From: Escherichia coli
GTDB taxonomy: Bacteria; Pseudomonadota; Gammaproteobacteria; Enterobacterales; Enterobacteriaceae
Reading direction: 5' to 3' (one strand)
Assembly: GCF_048403405.1 (NCBI RefSeq)
Contig: NZ_CP183129.1
Length of the DNA stretch: 64,000 bases
Made by a program: the position numbers and the translations under genes
In this document: piece after piece, positions 1 to 15,340 of the stretch
Layout: every line of letters begins with the position of its first letter
How positions within the stretch are numbered: position 1 is the first letter of the stretch
The notes under the pieces: generated by a model
What the model saw: only the letters and a program-made list of their open reading frames with translations
What the model was told of the DNA's origin: nothing
The model's database searches: none

Positions 1-292
1 TTTCTTCATCGAGTTTTTTTAGCTTGTATCGCATAGCCCTTACTGAATAAATTGAGCGGCAGGTTGCAATTGCTATTTCTTCTGCGGAGAACTTACCGAA
101 AAGTGATACTTCGGCTCTTGTCCATCGTCTTCCACGAAGTCGGCTAACAATGTCAGCGCCAATCCTTGTTGCTTTCGCCATAACTGCTTTTTCAGTCCTT
201 TCCAGTTTTTCAGCGATAACTTCAACTGGCATTGTCGCCGCCACTTCGCGCAAGAAATCGACTTCCCATTTCTCCCATGGAGTCTTTTTCAT
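1..292 (-). CDS. Hypothetical phage early-left protein, partial (ATG at 292..290, runs off the left edge)
   Basis: Open frame on the minus strand from ATG 292 to position 1 with no stop (97 codons, MKKTPWEKWEVDFLREV...); directly downstream of the 304..792 gene. No clear SD, so possibly translationally coupled. Confidence 0.4.
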   Translation of the reverse strand, partial: MKKTPWEKWEVDFLREVAATMPVEVIAEKLERTEKAVMAKATRIGADIVSRLRGRRWTRAEVSLFGKFSAEEIAIATCRSIYSVRAMRYKLKKLDEE

Positions 293-303
293 AGGCGATA
301 CCG

Positions 304-792
304 TTATTTGATAAGAAGTGAAGGTTTCCCAACTTTGAGTTGAGCACCGGGGATATTTATTCCTGCTTTTAGTTGGTGTTTGATTGCCAGTTTGTCGGCT
401 TTAATTGTCGTTTCGAACTCAACGTATTCAGGAGGAAGGGCGCTTGAGTCGATGATTTCTACAGTTTCTGACGGTTTGCGGATTGTTACCTGGTGAATAC
501 CTGCTCGAATCTTTTTCTTGCCAACCATTTCAAGCGATGACGCTATATACGCCATAATGCTGTCAATCTTATTTTGAATTACTGCGGCTCGCTCATTTAG
601 TGACTTTGCCTCTTCCTTGAGGCGTTCAGCATAACCAGATTCATTTTTAATAATGGCGAGAAGTTGCTCTATTTTATCGGTAAATTCTCCTTCCATGCCT
701 TCTATTGTGTCAGCAATCATCTCTGGCTCTAAATCTGAATCCATCAATTTTGCGTATTCATTGGCTATTTCATACAGTTTGCTCACTGGCAA
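304..792 (-). CDS. Hypothetical protein of the recombination module (162 aa)
   Basis: ORF track; overlaps the recT stop by 23 nt in operon-like fashion; no motif recognised. Confidence 0.5.
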   Translation of the reverse strand: MPVSKLYEIANEYAKLMDSDLEPEMIADTIEGMEGEFTDKIEQLLAIIKNESGYAERLKEEAKSLNERAAVIQNKIDSIMAYIASSLEMVGKKKIRAGIHQVTIRKPSETVEIIDSSALPPEYVEFETTIKADKLAIKHQLKAGINIPGAQLKVGKPSLLIK

Positions 793-1681
793 CCTCCAGT
801 TTCGCTTTGCATTCTATGTAAATGGCTTGTACGTTCTGCTGCAATTTCATTCCAGATGTCAGGCGATATGCTTCTGCAAAATATCGCTTCAAATCATCCA
901 TGTTTTCTGCCTGAGCCATTTCATCGCAAAGAAGTTGTGCTTTATCCATTATTTCCTGCCGGCGTTTCCGTTCATCTTCGCGGATATCTTCCTCTGATTT
1001 GTGCGGCATAACTGGTTCAGTCCATACACCTTCTTCTTCGTTTAGTACGTGAATAGCACTATCAAGACGTGATGCCTTAGGCCAATACTTGCTTGCACGC
1101 TTCACGACCGTCTTTCGCGCCATCTCATTCCAGTGATTTACCCATGGTCCTTTATCGCTGAATGCCGCCTTGCTTGTTTTCCTTACAGCCTCAATTTCAG
1201 CAAGACTCATCTCTTCCGTTAGATAATCACCTGCCGGCGTCTTAACTGTGCAGTAAACGCCAACGATATCACCACGATCACCGAAGGCGTTGTATTTATG
1301 GGTTGGTGCTTTATCAAGCCCGTTTGACTCATAGGTATCGTTAGCATGAACAAGTTTTGCCTGACCCCATGAGATAACACCAGACTCCATTGCAATATGG
1401 AGCAATCCCATATAGCTGATATCAAGGCAAACCATGCCGTCGCGCGGAACCAGATAAGCCAGTTTGCTGGCCGGGTTTAAGGTGATGCCGATCGCCGCAA
1501 CATTGATGATGGCGTTCTGTGCGCTGGTTGGATTTGCCAGTGCTGTTTTAGCCAGGTAATCATTTTTCTGGAAATACTGAATTGCAAACTGGCTTTCCTT
1601 AGCCCATGTCACCGTCTGTTCAGTCAATGCTCCGCAGAATAACTGCTCCTGCTGTTTAACGAATTCAACGATATTGCTCAT
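770..1681 (-). CDS. recT: RecT-family single-strand annealing protein (303 aa)
   Basis: Segment GPWVNHWNEMARKTVVKRASKYWPK resembles the conserved RecT block (Rac RecT GPWVTHWEEMAKKTAIRRLFKYLP, from memory); sits at the position of lambda bet. Confidence 0.75.
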   Translation of the reverse strand: MSNIVEFVKQQEQLFCGALTEQTVTWAKESQFAIQYFQKNDYLAKTALANPTSAQNAIINVAAIGITLNPASKLAYLVPRDGMVCLDISYMGLLHIAMESGVISWGQAKLVHANDTYESNGLDKAPTHKYNAFGDRGDIVGVYCTVKTPAGDYLTEEMSLAEIEAVRKTSKAAFSDKGPWVNHWNEMARKTVVKRASKYWPKASRLDSAIHVLNEEEGVWTEPVMPHKSEEDIREDERKRRQEIMDKAQLLCDEMAQAENMDDLKRYFAEAYRLTSGMKLQQNVQAIYIECKAKLEVASEQTV

Positions 1682-1989
1682 GCAGCTTCTCCATAAATAT
1701 GTCTGCGTTTGAATATTGCGAAGGCATATTCAGCCTTAACTCTTTCGGTTATTGCATCCCAGAACCATTCAGCGGCTTTTTCCTGATAGTTACAGTCATC
1801 ATCTTCCAGCCAGTCGATAGCGTCCTTAGTGTGTTCATCTGGTTTATATGAGCGAAGCATTTCGCTTATTGGGTCGCAACGTTTGCAGAGGCGATCAACT
1901 TCACTGTTGATTCGTTCGTAATCTTCATCAGTAAAACTTGCGATTATTTGCGATATTTCACGCTTATCATTCAGAGTCAGAATCATCAT
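1678..1989 (-). CDS. Hypothetical protein (103 aa) at the position of lambda gam/kil
   Basis: ORF track; 4-nt overlap with recT start; function unknown. Confidence 0.5.
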   Translation of the reverse strand: MMILTLNDKREISQIIASFTDEDYERINSEVDRLCKRCDPISEMLRSYKPDEHTKDAIDWLEDDDCNYQEKAAEWFWDAITERVKAEYAFAIFKRRHIYGEAA

Positions 1990-2070
1990 CTTTCTCCTGT
2001 TCTTTGTGCTGATTGAGCATTTTGTTCATCTGACGAATGAATTCTTCGTCTGACCAGTTATCTGTAAAAC

Positions 2071-2241
2071 TCATGGACGGCCTTGTTGTTTCAAAATATC
2101 CCAAAGCTTTTCGAGCAAACTTTTCATTCTTGGTTGTTTAAAGTCTGCTCCGGTTAAAATGTTTTTTCGTGAATGCTGCACCGATAAAATTGGGTTGAAA
2201 GGGCGAACCGATGCCGCCCCTGCAATAGCGAACTGTTGCAT
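2071..2241 (-). CDS. cIII: cIII-like small protein (56 aa; not in ORF track because under 60 aa)
   Basis: Minus-strand ORF MQQFAIAGAASVRPF...SLLEKLWDILKQQGRP with GGAG SD 8 nt upstream; resembles lambda cIII (MQYAIAG...LIDILNQPGVP, from memory); correct position downstream of N. Confidence 0.5.
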   Translation of the reverse strand: MQQFAIAGAASVRPFNPILSVQHSRKNILTGADFKQPRMKSLLEKLWDILKQQGRP

Positions 2242-4164: not shown

Positions 4165-4545
4165 TTAAGGCCATTGGGTTGGTGGAAGATCGTGGGTTTT
4201 TATCTGCGTATTTGCTTCCACACATTTATCATAGTCTAATTTCTCTACAGCAAGCAATAGTGATTCAGCATACATCAATCCTTGTTTGATGTTCATAACA
4301 TTTATGCTTGCACTTGCGGCATCCATATCCTTTGCTGTCTCTACCATGTGCTCAAAGCTTTGAGCAATAGAGTCAACACCGTTTTTCATCCTTGTAAACA
4401 CTAATTTTAGCTCATCAAGGCTTGGATTCGTTAGATCATACATCCCATGCATTCCATGGGCTTCGAATAACTCTGACAACGATCTAAGGGCGAAGTTCAC
4501 AGAATCAATAACTTGGTCGTACTTTTTCTTATCAAGATCATTCAT
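4165..4545 (-). CDS. 126-aa acidic protein of unknown function occupying the rexA/rexB position
   Basis: ORF track; starts 66 nt downstream of the cI stop on the same strand, AAGG SD about 11 nt upstream; no TM segment or motif recognised; visibly AT-richer than cI. Confidence 0.6.
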   Translation of the reverse strand: MNDLDKKKYDQVIDSVNFALRSLSELFEAHGMHGMYDLTNPSLDELKLVFTRMKNGVDSIAQSFEHMVETAKDMDAASASINVMNIKQGLMYAESLLLAVEKLDYDKCVEANTQIKTHDLPPTQWP

Positions 4546-7164: not shown

Positions 7165-9045
7165 ATGACACCAAGTGAACTTAGCGACCTGCTTTGGGCG
7201 CAGGTTGACAGGGTGGCTCCGCACCTGTTGCCAAACGGCAAGAAAGAGGGGCATGAGTGGGTTGCCGGTAACGTCAACGGTGACAAGGGAAACAGCCTTA
7301 AGGTCAACCTTAGCGGCAAGAAAAAATGGGCTGATTTCGCTGAGGGAGACGGCGGTGACATGCTTGATTTGTGGATGGCATGTCGTGGAATTAACCTGCA
7401 TCAGGCTATGCAGGAAGCGAAAGCCTTTCTCGGAATCAAGGATGACGATCACCATTTCGATGCCAAACGTGAGAAGAAATTCTCCAGACCTGATCGCAAG
7501 AAAATCGCCCGCTACGTTACCAGAACAGAATCCCATCTTGAGTACCTGCAATCGCGTGGCATATCGCCAGAAATCGTAAAGCGCTACGAGGTTGTCAGCG
7601 GCAAGGTGTGGAATGGAGAGCTGGAACTGGATGCTCTGGTGATTCCGTACAAACGCGATGGTGAGTTGTTGCAGGTCAAGCGAATCAGCACTGAGCGCCC
7701 GGACGGGAAGAAAGTCATTATGGCAGAAGGTGATTGCGAACCTTGTCTGTTCGGATGGCAGGCTCTGGACGCTGGCGTGAGGGCGGTTGTACTTTGCGAA
7801 GGCGAAATTGATTGTATGAGCTATGCGCAATACGGCATCTCGGCGTTATCCGTGCCGTTTGGTGGCGGGAAAGGCGCTAAACAGCAGTGGATTGAGTTTG
7901 AGTATCACAACCTCGACAGGTTTGAGGAAATATTCATCTCGATGGACGTTGATGATGTTGGTCGTGAAGCCGCAAGGGAAATCGCAAGCCGACTCGGTGA
8001 ACATCGTTGCCGTCTTGTTACTCTGCCGTACAAAGACATCAACGAATGCCTGATGAACGGTGTTACCGAGGATGAAATCTGGCAGTACATCGGCACGGCA
8101 TCCTACTTCGACCCTGAAGAACTCTACAGCGCGCGAGAGTTTTACCAGGACACTATCAACGCTTTCTACGGCAAGCAGCAGTATCTGTTTAATCCACCGT
8201 GGGAATCTCTGGTAGATAAATTCCAGTTCCGTGAGGCCGAGTTGACGCTGGTCAATGGTGTGAACGGTCACGGAAAAACGGAGGTTGTCGGGCATATGGC
8301 TCTTGAGGCAATGCGTCAGGGTGTGAAGACGTGCATCGCGTCACTTGAGCTGAAGCCTGGTATTCTCCTTAAGCGCCTTACCCGTCAGGCGACGTGCTGC
8401 AAGATGCCGCCAGTGCTGGAAATTGACTCTGCATTTAAATTTTATGACGAAAGACTTTGGGTGTTTGGCCTGACCGGAACGGCGAAAGCCGACAGGCTGA
8501 TCGAAATATTCGACTACGCTCGCCGCCGATACGGGATCCAGTTATTCATCATCGACAGCCTGATGAAATGTGGCATAGGCGACGATGACTATAACGGGCA
8601 GAAGGCGTTTGTTGACTCGATTTGCGACTTCAAAAACAAAACAAACTCCCACGTCATTCTCGTTACTCACTCGCGAAAAGGAGACAGCGAAGAAAAACCA
8701 ACCGGGAAAATGGACGTAAAAGGCTCTGGAGCGATAACAGACCTGACAGACAACCTTTTCATCATCTGGCGTAACAAGGCTCGCGAGAGAGCGTTACAGA
8801 GAGTTCAGAGTGGTGAAAAGATGTCAGAGAAGGACGAACAGCTACTGGCATCTCCGGCATCTGTTTTGATGCTTGAAAAACAACGTAACGGCGAAGGTTG
8901 GGAAGGTGGTGTCCCGTTGTTCCTTGACGAGCAATCGCACCAGTTCCTGCAACTTGAATCAGGATCGCCATATAGCTACATCGCCAATATGCCGAAATCG
9001 GAATATGACGAGGCGTGGAGACAGGAAAACGTGACGGAGTATTAA
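7165..9045 (+). CDS. Bifunctional DNA primase/helicase (T7 gp4-like; 626 aa) in place of lambda P
   Basis: Central acidic TOPRIM-like block (VVLCEGEIDCMSYAQ...ISMDVDDVGREAA) followed by Walker A GVNGHGKT and a RecA/DnaB-like C-terminal half; follows the O-like gene. Confidence 0.7.
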   Translation: MTPSELSDLLWAQVDRVAPHLLPNGKKEGHEWVAGNVNGDKGNSLKVNLSGKKKWADFAEGDGGDMLDLWMACRGINLHQAMQEAKAFLGIKDDDHHFDAKREKKFSRPDRKKIARYVTRTESHLEYLQSRGISPEIVKRYEVVSGKVWNGELELDALVIPYKRDGELLQVKRISTERPDGKKVIMAEGDCEPCLFGWQALDAGVRAVVLCEGEIDCMSYAQYGISALSVPFGGGKGAKQQWIEFEYHNLDRFEEIFISMDVDDVGREAAREIASRLGEHRCRLVTLPYKDINECLMNGVTEDEIWQYIGTASYFDPEELYSAREFYQDTINAFYGKQQYLFNPPWESLVDKFQFREAELTLVNGVNGHGKTEVVGHMALEAMRQGVKTCIASLELKPGILLKRLTRQATCCKMPPVLEIDSAFKFYDERLWVFGLTGTAKADRLIEIFDYARRRYGIQLFIIDSLMKCGIGDDDYNGQKAFVDSICDFKNKTNSHVILVTHSRKGDSEEKPTGKMDVKGSGAITDLTDNLFIIWRNKARERALQRVQSGEKMSEKDEQLLASPASVLMLEKQRNGEGWEGGVPLFLDEQSHQFLQLESGSPYSYIANMPKSEYDEAWRQENVTEY

Positions 9046-14512: not shown

Positions 14513-14685
14513 TAGCGATAATTTTACTCATCATCCTTCACATCTGGCTCTGTAGACAGGGTGGTGCTCACTTCTGGAGTAAATCCAGATTAAACATCTC
14601 ATTGCTGATGCTTGATATTGAGCATCTGGCGCGCAGTAAGGGGCTGCGTTGAGATAAGAGCCAGTTCATTACAAATACCAGGATT

Positions 14686-14712
14686 TAGCCTCGCATTCGC
14701 GGGGCTTTTTAT
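14686..14712 (+). terminator. Hairpin plus T-run after the lysis cassette
   Basis: AGCCTCGCattcGCGGGGCT followed by TTTTAT. Confidence 0.4.
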
Positions 14713-14854
14713 ATCTGAATTTCACAGCGCATCTCACGCGCATATTAACGAGAGCCTTTCAGTAAGCGAGCCTGAGAAATGCCGTTATAGGTGGCGACCT
14801 CTCTCGGGCGGCTTTTCTGTGAGACAGGCTCACTTTCTAAAAGGTAAAGACGCT

Positions 14855-15340
14855 ATGAATAACTTTGTTGAAATTACCTCAAGAATTGGTCGCATGTACC
14901 AAGATTTTCTTATAAGTGGAAAGGGGTCTGGCGACATCATAGAGGAAATTGACAAGCTAAGTGCAGAGCTGAGAAGGAATGGGTGTGTTAATTCTATCTT
15001 TTTTGAAACTTTGCTAAAGCAAGGCTTCATGTTTGACATGATTAATTACAACAAAGTCGCACCCAGTGCTTCGCAAAAATCATATGTGTACGTTCTGCAT
15101 GCTGAAGATAGTGGGCTAACAAAAATAGGGTTTAGTCGCAGGGTTAATAAACGAATTTCAGAGATATCTCGCATGAGTGGCGGGAAGCTAAATCTAATTG
15201 CAAAGATTCCGGCCGATAGAGAGCTTGAAACCAAATTGCACCAAAAATATTACAACTATAGGTCGCACGGGGAGTGGTTTAGTCTCAATCGTTGTCATTT
15301 GAAAGAGCTAAAAGAAATGCCTGGTAACGAACTGAAATAA
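14855..15340 (+). CDS. Moron protein (161 aa) with C-terminal GIY-YIG-like (T5orf172-type) domain
   Basis: Start chosen at ATG 14855 (AAAGG SD); the ORF-track extension from 14612 looks non-coding. Motif KSYVYVLHAEDSGLTKIGFSRRVNKRISE...GEWF fits a GIY-YIG/T5orf172 core; gene is AT-richer than its surroundings. Confidence 0.55.
   Translation: MNNFVEITSRIGRMYQDFLISGKGSGDIIEEIDKLSAELRRNGCVNSIFFETLLKQGFMFDMINYNKVAPSASQKSYVYVLHAEDSGLTKIGFSRRVNKRISEISRMSGGKLNLIAKIPADRELETKLHQKYYNYRSHGEWFSLNRCHLKELKEMPGNELK

What the first reader, a model, noticed from the sequence alone, without database searches (positions are those of the whole stretch)
304..1989. RecT-type recombinase flanked by unassigned partner proteins
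The RecT-family annealase is not accompanied by a recognisable RecE or lambda-Exo-like exonuclease within the window. Its neighbours (162 aa downstream, 103 aa upstream) are unassigned and could be novel accessory factors (exonuclease, SSB or anti-RecBCD).
Basis: inference. Interest (0 to 1): 0.3.

Follow-up and report, generated by a model that had tools for sequence, protein, structure and literature searches.

The report
RecT recombination module lacking an exonuclease
This is the recombination gene cluster of a lambda/P22-like prophage, of a type already catalogued (phage HK140), in which the usual DNA-chewing enzyme is replaced by a "Gp157" protein that always travels with a matching tail on RecT, and whose first gene is an uncharacterised small acidic protein sitting where other phages carry their RecBCD inhibitor.

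Summary
The three ORFs are real, tightly coupled genes of a lambdoid early-left operon. RecT is confirmed (PF03837).

No lambda-Exo, YqaJ, RecE or DUF3799 exonuclease is found in the window. None is found left of the module in near-identical phages (HK140, Gally) or prophages.

"Both neighbours unassigned" is only half right:
- **Downstream protein:** 160 aa from GTG 786. It is a full-length Sipho_Gp157 member (PF05565), labelled "Mu Gam-like".
- **Published status:** a 2025 survey lists the 98%-identical HK140 module as annealase plus MuGam with no nuclease, and 84 of 246 modules lack a nuclease.
- **Upstream protein ("X", 103 aa):** truly unassigned (phrog_3486, no Pfam, no fold match).

Three things were added here:
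- **X position:** X is the first gene of an annealase or exonuclease-annealase module in every context examined. It alternates with Gam and GamL at that slot and never co-occurs with them.
- **RecT tail:** the C-terminal ~80 aa of RecT are inherited as one cassette with the downstream gene. A Bet-type tail goes with lambda Exo (47 loci) and this tail goes with Gp157 (30 loci), with no exceptions and clean DNA breakpoints.
- **Gp157 with Gam:** Gp157 co-occurs with true Gam or GamL.

Best reading: X is a Gam-slot host-nuclease inhibitor and Gp157 is an end-binding partner of RecT in the exonuclease slot. Both functions are inferred. Overall this is an ordinary, known module with modest residual novelty.

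The parts
2071..2241 (-). cIII-like gene (56 aa). It is the last conserved gene before the recombination module and marks the position in the pL operon.
   Evidence: phrog_550 CIII, E=1e-22. Its TGA stop overlaps the ATG of the next ORF.
1967..2074 (-). 35-aa very acidic ORF (pI 4.3), translationally coupled to cIII and overlapping the start of X. It carries an Arf-like WSDEEFI motif.
   Evidence: phrog_17766, E=5e-16. Present upstream of X in 80 of 80 IMG/VR loci. BLASTP to P22 Arf aligns only 12 residues, E=0.005. pI.
1678..1989 (-). Protein X: 103 aa, acidic (pI 4.65, net charge -9), predicted all-helical. First gene of the recombination module, in the Gam slot. Function unknown; proposed host-nuclease (RecBCD) inhibitor.
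   Evidence: - phrog_3486 (unknown function), E=1.7e-59; no Pfam family.
- 54 cluster representatives in 1.84 billion proteins; every member whose source is named or that lies in a phage record with a named host is from Enterobacterales.
- AF2 pLDDT 81, five helices; no significant fold hit.
- Immediately upstream of an annealase or exonuclease-annealase pair in every context examined.
- Alternates with Gam and GamL at this slot.
1010..1681 (-). RecT annealase core (aa 1 to about 224).
   Evidence: PF03837 covers aa 31-217, E=4.7e-32. 30% identity to Rac RecT. The same core, at up to 95% identity, is found joined to either of two different C-terminal domains.
773..1009 (-). RecT C-terminal domain, "type G" (aa about 225-303), lying outside the Pfam RecT domain. 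Proposed Gp157-binding tail. The stop codon is at 770-772.
   Evidence: - Conserved ...GMKLQQNVQAIY.ECK... in all RecTs followed by Gp157.
- Replaced by the lambda Bet-type C-terminal domain whenever lambda Exo follows.
- The DNA breakpoint falls between core and tail.
- No detectable homology to the Bet tail (hhalign probability 0.6%).
304..786 (-). Sipho_Gp157 family protein (160 aa from GTG 786; 162 aa if TTG 792), occupying the exonuclease slot downstream of RecT. Proposed DNA-end-binding partner of RecT.
   Evidence: - PF05565 E=1e-36, full length; phrog_253 E=2e-53.
- PF07352 Mu_Gam is only sub-threshold: E=0.008, 16.6 bits against a 28.3-bit cut-off.
- AF2 pLDDT 75: one long helix (aa 21-88) plus a small beta domain.
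- Always paired with the type-G RecT tail.
1..292 (-). N-terminal 97 aa of a 104-aa basic protein with two HTH-like repeats (HK140 gp39), cut by the window edge. It is the constant right-hand flank of the swappable cassette.
   Evidence: - The window begins 23 nt inside the gene as annotated in HK140.
- phrog_323, E=2e-20, the same PHROG as P22 Abc1 and Mu gp9.
- BLASTP to Mu gp9 E=5e-5; no BLASTP hit to P22 Abc1.
- DNA similarity to SEN22 and between L104 and L160 resumes exactly at this gene.

Best explanation
The region is the recombination ("Rec") module of a P22-like lambdoid prophage. It is transcribed leftward from pL as one N-antiterminated unit. The gene order is cIII, a 35-aa acidic peptide, X, RecT, Gp157, then a Mu-gp9-like HTH protein.

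**How it is proposed to work:**
- **RecT** anneals single-stranded DNA.
- **No phage exonuclease is encoded.** Single strands must come from host enzymes or from replication forks and packaging ends.
- **Gp157** sits in the slot where related modules carry lambda Exo, and it is inherited as one cassette with a dedicated C-terminal tail of RecT. It is therefore proposed to bind that tail, as lambda Exo binds the Red-beta tail, and to bind or protect double-strand ends (Mu Gam-like), bringing RecT to ends.
- **X** sits in the slot where related modules carry lambda Gam or phi80 GamL. It is proposed to be a third, unrelated-in-sequence inhibitor of RecBCD or another host nuclease.

**Shown:** gene identities, operon structure, absence of an exonuclease, slot equivalences, and tail-partner co-inheritance.

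**Inferred:** every biochemical activity of X and Gp157, and the RecT-Gp157 contact.
For: **Module identity and published precedent**
- DNA is 98% identical to HK140, mEpX1 and Gally.
- PMC12315714 lists HK140 as annealase type 4 plus MuGam, with no nuclease and no SSB.

**No exonuclease:**

**Operon structure:** overlapping starts and stops, and no internal minus-strand terminator-like site.

**X occupies the Gam slot**
- Seven of seven divergent X homologues (24-41% identity) lie immediately upstream of RecT/Bet plus lambda-Exo/YqaJ, or of RecE-like plus annealase.
- Phage ENT47670 has X, an annealase and an exonuclease 87% identical to lambda Exo.
- Among 80 IMG/VR loci sharing this annealase core, slot 1 holds X in 28, GamL in 25, Gam in 3 and another small acidic ORF or nothing recognised in 24. 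Two are never found together.
- X has the size, charge and helical character of GamS: pI 4.65 against 4.99.
- X at 96% identity serves a completely different cassette in phage SEN22, with the DNA breakpoint exactly at the X stop codon. This argues that X acts on the host rather than on one particular annealase.

**Gp157 as a RecT partner in the Exo slot**
- The Bet-type tail is followed by lambda Exo in 47 of 47 loci, and the type-G tail by Gp157 in 30 of 30. These fall into 17 architecture clusters.
- Core phylogeny is interleaved. The L104 core (Bet tail, Exo) is 95% identical to the L160 core (type-G tail, Gp157).
- DNA identity between L104 and L160 is 94.5% across the core, absent across tail plus partner, and 95.5% again at the HTH gene.
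- Gp157 co-occurs with bona fide Gam or GamL in 8 loci and in L102. It is therefore not simply the module's RecBCD inhibitor.

**Other consistent observations**
- The Mu Gam link gets some support from neighbourhood. The gene next to Gp157 is homologous to Mu gp9, which lies next to Mu gam.
- No Chi site lies in the first ~43 kb of the window, which include the whole prophage part. This fits a RecBCD-blocking strategy.
Against: - **No activity was tested.**
- **X has no significant similarity to Gam.** hhalign gives probability 20.6% over 29 columns against Gam and 0.1% against GamL. It scores equally weakly against P22 Arf (14-21%). Foldseek did not retrieve Gam structures.
- **Co-inheritance could reflect something other than contact.** It could reflect where recombination junctions are tolerated. 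The number of independent swap events is unknown and may be small.
- **A possible redundancy.** If Gp157 really is a MuGam-type RecBCD blocker, a second inhibitor (X) would be partly redundant.
Confidence: 0.55

Rival explanations
1. X is not a nuclease inhibitor. It is an Arf-like cofactor that acts directly on the annealase, as P22 Arf stimulates Erf.
For: - X lies in the position of P22 arf, immediately upstream of the annealase and overlapping it.
- hhalign of the X family against Arf gives probability 14-21%, E about 1e-3, over 29 columns including a shared NPI motif.
- The X stop overlaps the annealase start across the family. The conserved C-terminal E-[AV]-A encodes the Shine-Dalgarno sequence plus ATGA.
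Against: - X at 96% identity precedes an unrelated cassette in SEN22: ExoVIII plus a 189-aa unknown protein, with no RecT.
- X homologues precede Bet-like, RecT-like and other annealases, or an exonuclease gene first.
- X is mutually exclusive with Gam and GamL rather than additive to them.
- The Pfam Phage_Arf model does not hit X.
Confidence: 0.2
2. Gp157 is simply the module's anti-RecBCD end-protection protein (MuGam type), with no specific contact to RecT. The tail-partner association reflects genetic linkage only.
For: - PHROG label "Mu Gam-like end protection".
- Classification as MuGam in PMC12315714.
- Sub-threshold but near-full-length collinear Pfam Mu_Gam hit.
- The adjacent gene is a Mu-gp9 homologue.
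Against: - Gp157 co-occurs with true Gam or GamL in several architectures.
- The swap unit always includes the RecT tail, with breakpoints inside recT rather than at the gene border. Whole-gene swaps at gene borders do occur elsewhere in the same region (window against SEN22).
- There are no exceptions in 77 loci or 17 clusters.
Confidence: 0.3
3. The module is a decayed remnant that lost its exonuclease and no longer promotes double-strand recombination.
For: PMC12315714 notes that modules with few genes are "somewhat suspect".
Against: - All genes are intact and translationally coupled.
- The same module is carried by the sequenced phages HK140, mEpX1, Gally and Kapi1, which have their own phage genome records.
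- It is conserved across Escherichia, Salmonella, Serratia and Cronobacter at 62-99% protein identity.
- It is present in 264 complete E. coli genomes.
Confidence: 0.05
4. Gp157 is itself a new kind of nuclease or end-processing enzyme that replaces lambda Exo catalytically.
For: It occupies the exonuclease slot and pairs with the annealase tail exactly as lambda Exo does.
Against: - The predicted structure is one 68-residue helix plus a small beta domain of about 70 residues, with no nuclease-fold match.
- No nuclease family is hit in Pfam or PHROGs.
Confidence: 0.05

Closest known systems
HK140-type lambdoid Rec module (strand-annealing protein type 4 + MuGam, no nuclease, no SSB), as catalogued in PMC12315714 (Genome Res 2025)
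   Same: The DNA is 98% identical, with the same genes in the same order. This window holds a copy of that module.
   Different: As far as the text read here shows, that survey does not list the upstream 103-aa gene as a Rec-module gene. It explicitly leaves partner-interaction-domain shuffling unanalysed.
Lambda Red operon (gam-bet-exo)
   Same: - Same place in the pL operon, after cIII/kil.
- Same three-slot layout: small acidic protein, annealase, partner.
- Relatives of this module carry true Gam, a Bet-type tail and lambda Exo at 72-87% identity in the corresponding slots.
   Different: - No exonuclease here.
- Slot 1 is X, not detectably related to Gam.
- Slot 3 is Gp157.
- The annealase tail is unrelated in sequence to the Bet tail.
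P22 recombination region (arf-erf-abc1-abc2)
   Same: - A phage recombination system without its own exonuclease.
- A small acidic gene lies just upstream of the annealase.
- A phrog_323 HTH protein and DUF2737 lie downstream.
   Different: - The annealase is RecT, not Erf.
- No Abc2.
- Gp157 is absent from P22.
- The 104-aa HTH protein gives no BLASTP hit to Abc1.
Rac RecET
   Same: RecT-family annealase, 30% identity.
   Different: No RecE here, and RacC is unrelated to X.
Phage Mu Gam with its neighbour gp9
   Same: A Gam-like end-binding candidate sits next to a gp9-like HTH protein. BLASTP between the 104-aa HTH protein and Mu gp9 gives E=5e-5.
   Different: - Gp157 is below the Pfam Mu_Gam threshold.
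- It falls in a different PHROG (253 against 491 for Mu Gam).
- Mu has no annealase.
Photorhabdus Plu-gamma/beta/alpha (PMC4381043)
   Same: A first-slot small acidic protein that was shown experimentally to boost recombineering like Gam.
   Different: The cloning primer shows that Plu2934 begins MNPYAVYD. That is Gam/GamL-like (MNAYYIQD, MAAYRAYD) and not X-like. It therefore gives no direct evidence about X.

Membership tests
RecT family (PF03837) | Full RecT domain scoring above the Pfam gathering threshold | tested here: met
   111.6 bits against a 24-bit cut-off, covering aa 31-217. phrog_148 E=6e-92. 30% identity to Rac RecT.
RecET / lambda Red type two-component recombinase | A cognate 5'-3' exonuclease (RecE/DUF3799 or lambda Exo/YqaJ) encoded next to the annealase | tested here: not met
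   No hit in the window, or in the early-left regions of HK140, Gally and EC2257. Nothing exonuclease-like in 80 of 80 loci.
Sipho_Gp157 (PF05565) | Full-length match above the gathering threshold | tested here: met
   126.8 bits against a 28.6-bit cut-off; aa 5-162 match profile positions 1-162 of 162.
Phage Mu Gam (PF07352) | Sequence membership (Pfam gathering score) | tested here: not met
   16.6 bits against a 28.3-bit cut-off, E=0.008. Mu Gam does not hit PF05565 in return. hhalign probability 1.6%.
Phage Mu Gam (PF07352) | Ku-like fold and dimeric binding of dsDNA ends | tested here: inconclusive
Lambda Gam (PF06064) / GamL, for protein X | Sequence or profile similarity | tested here: inconclusive
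   - No Pfam hit in 32 family members.
- hhalign against Gam: probability 20.6%, 29 collinear columns, motif D-D-x-x-[FY]-Q-E.
- hhalign against GamL: probability 0.1%.
Lambda Gam (PF06064) / GamL, for protein X | Position as the first gene of the Red-type operon, as an alternative to Gam | tested here: met
   X, Gam and GamL are mutually exclusive at the same slot on the same annealase core.
Lambda Gam (PF06064) / GamL, for protein X | Inhibition of RecBCD | not testable with these tools
   Needs a T4 gene-2 plating assay, a linear-DNA protection assay or an in vitro RecBCD assay.
P22 Arf (PF17585), for X and the 35-aa ORF | Sequence membership | tested here: inconclusive
   No Pfam hit. X against Arf by hhalign: probability 14-21%. 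The 35-aa ORF against Arf by BLASTP: 12 residues, E=0.005.
P22 Abc1, for the 104-aa left neighbour | Sequence similarity to Abc1 | tested here: inconclusive
   No BLASTP alignment. Both fall in phrog_323. The clearer relative is Mu gp9, E=5e-5.

The most novel reading that the evidence does not exclude
Two unrecognised functions sit in a catalogued module.

1. Protein X (phrog_3486) is a new sequence class of RecBCD or host-nuclease inhibitor. It would fill the Gam slot in many enterobacterial prophages currently scored as lacking an inhibitor.
2. Gp157 is not a redundant RecBCD blocker. It is an end-binding adaptor that docks on a dedicated RecT C-terminal domain and replaces the exonuclease as the loader of the annealase at DNA ends.
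Probability: 0.3. Interest if true: 0.55.

Novelty: already known. Interest (0 to 1): 0.3.

Why it matters
As a finding it is ordinary. It is a common prophage recombination module, already catalogued, present in about 5% of complete E. coli genomes.

It matters in three modest ways:
- **A candidate new inhibitor family.** X is a small, testable candidate for a new anti-RecBCD family. It could trigger RecBCD-guarding defences such as retron Ec48 (my own knowledge, not checked here).
- **A concrete prediction about Gp157.** The strict co-inheritance of the RecT tail with either lambda Exo or Gp157 predicts how exonuclease-less annealase systems are targeted to DNA ends.
- **A possible tool.** X, RecT and Gp157 could be tried as a compact recombineering set.

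Tried and rejected
**Searches that gave nothing useful**
- **Fold searches for X.** PDB Foldseek gave no hit with E<3. The UvsY hits have TM 0.2-0.3 and are not meaningful. In BFVD the best hit is an unnamed 107-aa protein (E=0.096). An Edno5 104-aa protein scores TM 0.53 but E=1.8, and this was not followed up.
- **PDB sequence searches** for both proteins found nothing.
- **Supplementary tables of PMC12315714** are not held.

**Hypotheses tested and rejected**
- **RacC as an X relative:** rejected.
- **Plu-gamma as an X family member:** rejected from its primer-derived N-terminus.
- **P22 Abc2, Abc1 or Arf homologues in the window by BLAST:** none.
- **DUF5405 (left of the window in relatives) as an Abc2 analogue:** no similarity.
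- **Type-G RecT tail as a diverged Bet tail:** hhalign probability 0.6%.

**Practical dead ends**
- The exact source genome of the window is not among the complete E. coli genomes. The best match covers 77%, so the real left flank could not be read.
- The broad X alignment was too divergent for the search for related loci.
- A genome-contig scan was judged unnecessary once the Plu-gamma question was settled.
Full report
**1. What is at the coordinates**

The minus strand of window 1-2241 carries a tightly packed gene string:
- cIII-like gene, 2241-2071.
- A 35-aa acidic ORF, 2074-1967. Its ATG overlaps the cIII stop.
- The 103-aa ORF "X", 1989-1678, preceded by AGGAG.
- RecT, 1681-770. Its ATG overlaps the X stop as ATGA.
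- The Gp157-family gene, 786-304. The GTG start has a GGAGG 7 nt upstream. The ORF list gives the earlier TTG at 792, hence 162 aa.
- From 292 leftward, the first 97 codons of a 104-aa gene cut by the window edge.

No minus-strand terminator-like site lies between 2274 and 1. To the right lie an Ea10-like DUF2528 gene, ral, N and a lambda-type cI. This is therefore the early-left (pL) operon of a lambdoid prophage. The virion genes further right are P22-like.

**2. Are the genes real, and how common are they?**

- The same DNA at about 98% identity is in phages HK140, mEpX1, Gally and Kapi1.
- At least 80% of window 1-2000 is present in 264 of 5426 complete E. coli genomes.
- In 80 of 80 IMG/VR loci retrieved through X, the order is 35-aa ORF, X, RecT, Gp157, HTH-104, optionally DUF5405, then DUF2737.
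- The X-RecT-Gp157 trio also occurs in Serratia and Cronobacter prophages, where the Gp157 proteins are 71% and 68% identical to this one.

**3. Identity of the three proteins**

*RecT.* PF03837 (E=4.7e-32), phrog_148, and 30% identity to Rac RecT.

*Downstream protein.*
- It is a full-length member of PF05565 Sipho_Gp157 (E=1e-36) and of phrog_253, labelled "Mu Gam-like end protection".
- Its match to the Mu Gam Pfam model is collinear and near full length but below threshold (E=0.008).
- The link to Mu Gam could not be strengthened. Mu Gam is in a different PHROG and does not hit PF05565. hhalign probability is 1.6%.
- Some indirect support comes from neighbourhood. The next gene (HTH-104) is homologous to Mu gp9 (E=5e-5), which lies next to Mu gam.

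*Upstream protein X.*
- It is phrog_3486 (unknown function), with no Pfam family in any of 32 members.
- It has no PDB sequence relative and no significant fold match.
- An exhaustive HMMER search of 1.84 billion representatives finds only 54 relatives. Every member whose source is named or that lies in a phage record with a named host is from Enterobacterales, and all named ones are annotated "hypothetical protein".
- It is acidic (pI 4.65) and predicted all-helical.

**4. Is there an exonuclease?**

No.
- tblastn with lambda Exo, two YqaJ-type enzymes, the RecE catalytic domain, a DUF3799 protein and SEN22 ExoVIII finds nothing at E<=0.01. This holds for the whole 64-kb window and for the complete int-to-N regions of HK140, Gally and prophage EC2257.
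- The nin region holds NinB, YbcO and RusA only.
- Lambda Gam, GamL and Abc2 are also absent.
- The real left flank of this window could not be read, because its source genome is not among the complete E. coli genomes.

**5. What is already known**

- PMC12315714 (Genome Res 2025) surveys lambdoid Rec modules. It names HK140 as the example of strand-annealing protein type 4 working with no phage nuclease, no SSB, and MuGam as the anti-RecBCD protein.
- It counts 84 of 246 enterobacterial modules without a nuclease.
- It notes that partner-domain shuffling was "beyond the scope".
- It does not mention the X gene in the text read.
- For Firmicutes phages, PMC8093625 already lists Sipho_Gp157 and Mu Gam-like genes as common neighbours of erf and sak4.

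**6. What X is associated with**

*Divergent homologues.* Seven X homologues (24-41% identity) were looked up in their contigs. Every one is the gene immediately before an annealase module:
- X, annealase, lambda Exo at 72% identity (L008).
- X, Bet-like annealase at 64-69% identity, YqaJ-type exonuclease (L009, L011).
- X, RecE-like exonuclease at 54% identity, annealase (L010; L014 = Erwinia phage phiEt88).
- Two contigs end just after the next gene.

*Named phages.*
- Cronobacter phage ENT47670 has X, a RecT/Bet hybrid and lambda Exo at 87% identity.
- Salmonella phage SEN22 carries X at 96% identity in front of a different cassette, ExoVIII plus a 189-aa unknown protein. DNA identity to the window is 96% up to exactly the X stop codon, then nothing, then 83% from the HTH-104 start.

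*Slot occupancy.* Among 80 IMG/VR loci sharing this annealase core, the first slot holds:
- X in 28 loci.
- GamL in 25 loci.
- Lambda Gam in 3 loci.
- In the remaining 24, another small acidic ORF ending at the annealase start, or nothing recognised.

Two are never present together. L102 has GamL (phrog_1050), RecT and Gp157.

*Interpretation.* X is therefore a positional alternative to two known RecBCD inhibitors, and it is not tied to one annealase type. Homology to Gam is not established: hhalign probability is 20.6% over 29 collinear columns. X scores equally weakly against P22 Arf. The experimentally studied Plu-gamma is Gam/GamL-like by its N-terminus, not X-like.

**7. What Gp157 is associated with**

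- Aligning annealases with this core shows two alternative C-terminal domains of about 80 residues. One is the lambda Bet-type tail. The other is a "type G" tail (...GMKLQQNVQAIY.ECK...).
- In the 80 loci, every Bet-type tail is followed by lambda Exo (47 loci) and every type-G tail by Gp157 (30 loci). There are no mixed cases. The other three loci have an unclassified or split tail.
- Grouped at 95% core identity and by architecture, this gives 17 clusters, and core relationships are interleaved. For example, the L104 core (Bet tail, Exo) is 95% identical to the L160 core (type-G tail, Gp157).
- At the DNA level L104 and L160 are 94.5% identical across the core. They are unrelated across tail plus partner, and 95.5% identical again from the HTH-104 gene.
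- The unit of exchange is therefore tail plus partner gene.
- From my own knowledge of the literature (Caldwell et al., NAR 2019; not re-read here), the Red-beta C-terminal domain is the lambda Exo-binding domain. By analogy, the type-G tail is predicted to bind Gp157.
- Gp157 also co-occurs with real Gam or GamL. Its role is therefore unlikely to be only RecBCD inhibition.

**8. Most likely mechanism (inferred)**

- X blocks RecBCD or another host nuclease.
- Gp157 binds the RecT tail and DNA ends in a Mu Gam-like manner.
- RecT anneals single strands that are produced by host enzymes or exposed at replication forks.
- No Chi site lies in the first ~43 kb of the window, which include the whole prophage part. 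All four Chi sites are at 43-57 kb in the host part. This is consistent with the model but not significant.
- Confidence in this composite is about 0.55. The rivals are listed separately.

**9. Verdict**

The module is a near-identical copy of one already catalogued. One neighbour belongs to a named family. The other is a conserved but uncharacterised Gam-slot protein.

Novelty is rated "already known", with modest residual interest in X and in the RecT-tail/Gp157 pairing. Interest is 0.3.

Noticed in passing
window 1967-2074 (-): A 35-aa very acidic ORF (pI 4.3) is coupled to cIII and overlaps the X start. It is conserved in 80 of 80 related loci and carries a WSDEEFI motif like the N-terminus of P22 Arf (FSDEEFI). 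It matches phrog_17766 and phrog_2123 (the latter labelled "recombinase"). It is not annotated in HK140.
   Followed up: partly
window 1-292 (-); Mu locus L015 2483-3326: The 104-aa HTH-repeat protein left of Gp157 is a homologue of Mu gp9 (E=5e-5). Mu gp9 lies directly next to Mu gam. P22 Abc1 is in the same PHROG (323). A Gam-like protein paired with a gp9/Abc1-like protein may be a conserved pair.
   Followed up: partly
L017 (Salmonella phage SEN22) 4809-6199: In SEN22 the RecT-Gp157 cassette is replaced by a DUF3799 exonuclease plus a 189-aa protein of unknown function (phrog_11517, no Pfam). That protein sits where an annealase would be expected and may be an unrecognised annealase type.
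   Followed up: no
L105 2741-2992; L160 2660-3001; L121 2789-3004: In modules where the first slot holds neither X, Gam nor GamL, it holds other small acidic ORFs (83, 103 and 68 aa) with no Pfam or PHROG family. Each ends at the annealase start. The slot looks hypervariable, as expected for an arms-race factor.
   Followed up: partly
alignment A4 (X family), C-terminus; window 1678-1695: The X family ends almost invariably in E-[AV]-A. In the window these codons (GGAGAAGCTGCATGA) encode the Shine-Dalgarno sequence and the overlapping ATGA start of recT. The conservation may therefore be at the nucleotide level, for translational coupling.
   Followed up: partly
window 4165-4545 (-): A 126-aa ORF lies between N and cI, in the position of lambda rexAB. 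It is phrog_16322 (unknown function, E=8e-89) with no Pfam family. It could be a lysogen-expressed moron or defence gene.
   Followed up: no
window 14612-15340 (+): A 242-aa protein with a T5orf172/MUG113 domain lies between the lysis genes and the terminase genes.
   Followed up: no
window 7165-9045 (+): A 626-aa fused Toprim primase and DnaB-like helicase replaces the lambda P-type loader next to an O-like initiator.
   Followed up: no
window 1-43000 versus 43038-56717: There are no Chi sites (GCTGGTGG) in the first ~43 kb of the window, which include the prophage part. All four sites in the window are in the flanking chromosomal genes. This is not statistically significant on its own.
   Followed up: partly
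BFVD hit A0A3G3BYC6 (Edwardsiella phage Edno5, 104 aa): The X model's fourth fold hit (TM 0.53, E=1.8) is an uncharacterised 104-aa protein of phage Edno5. PMC12315714 lists Edno5 as having RecE and the same annealase type but no anti-RecBCD gene. It may be a very distant X relative.
   Followed up: no
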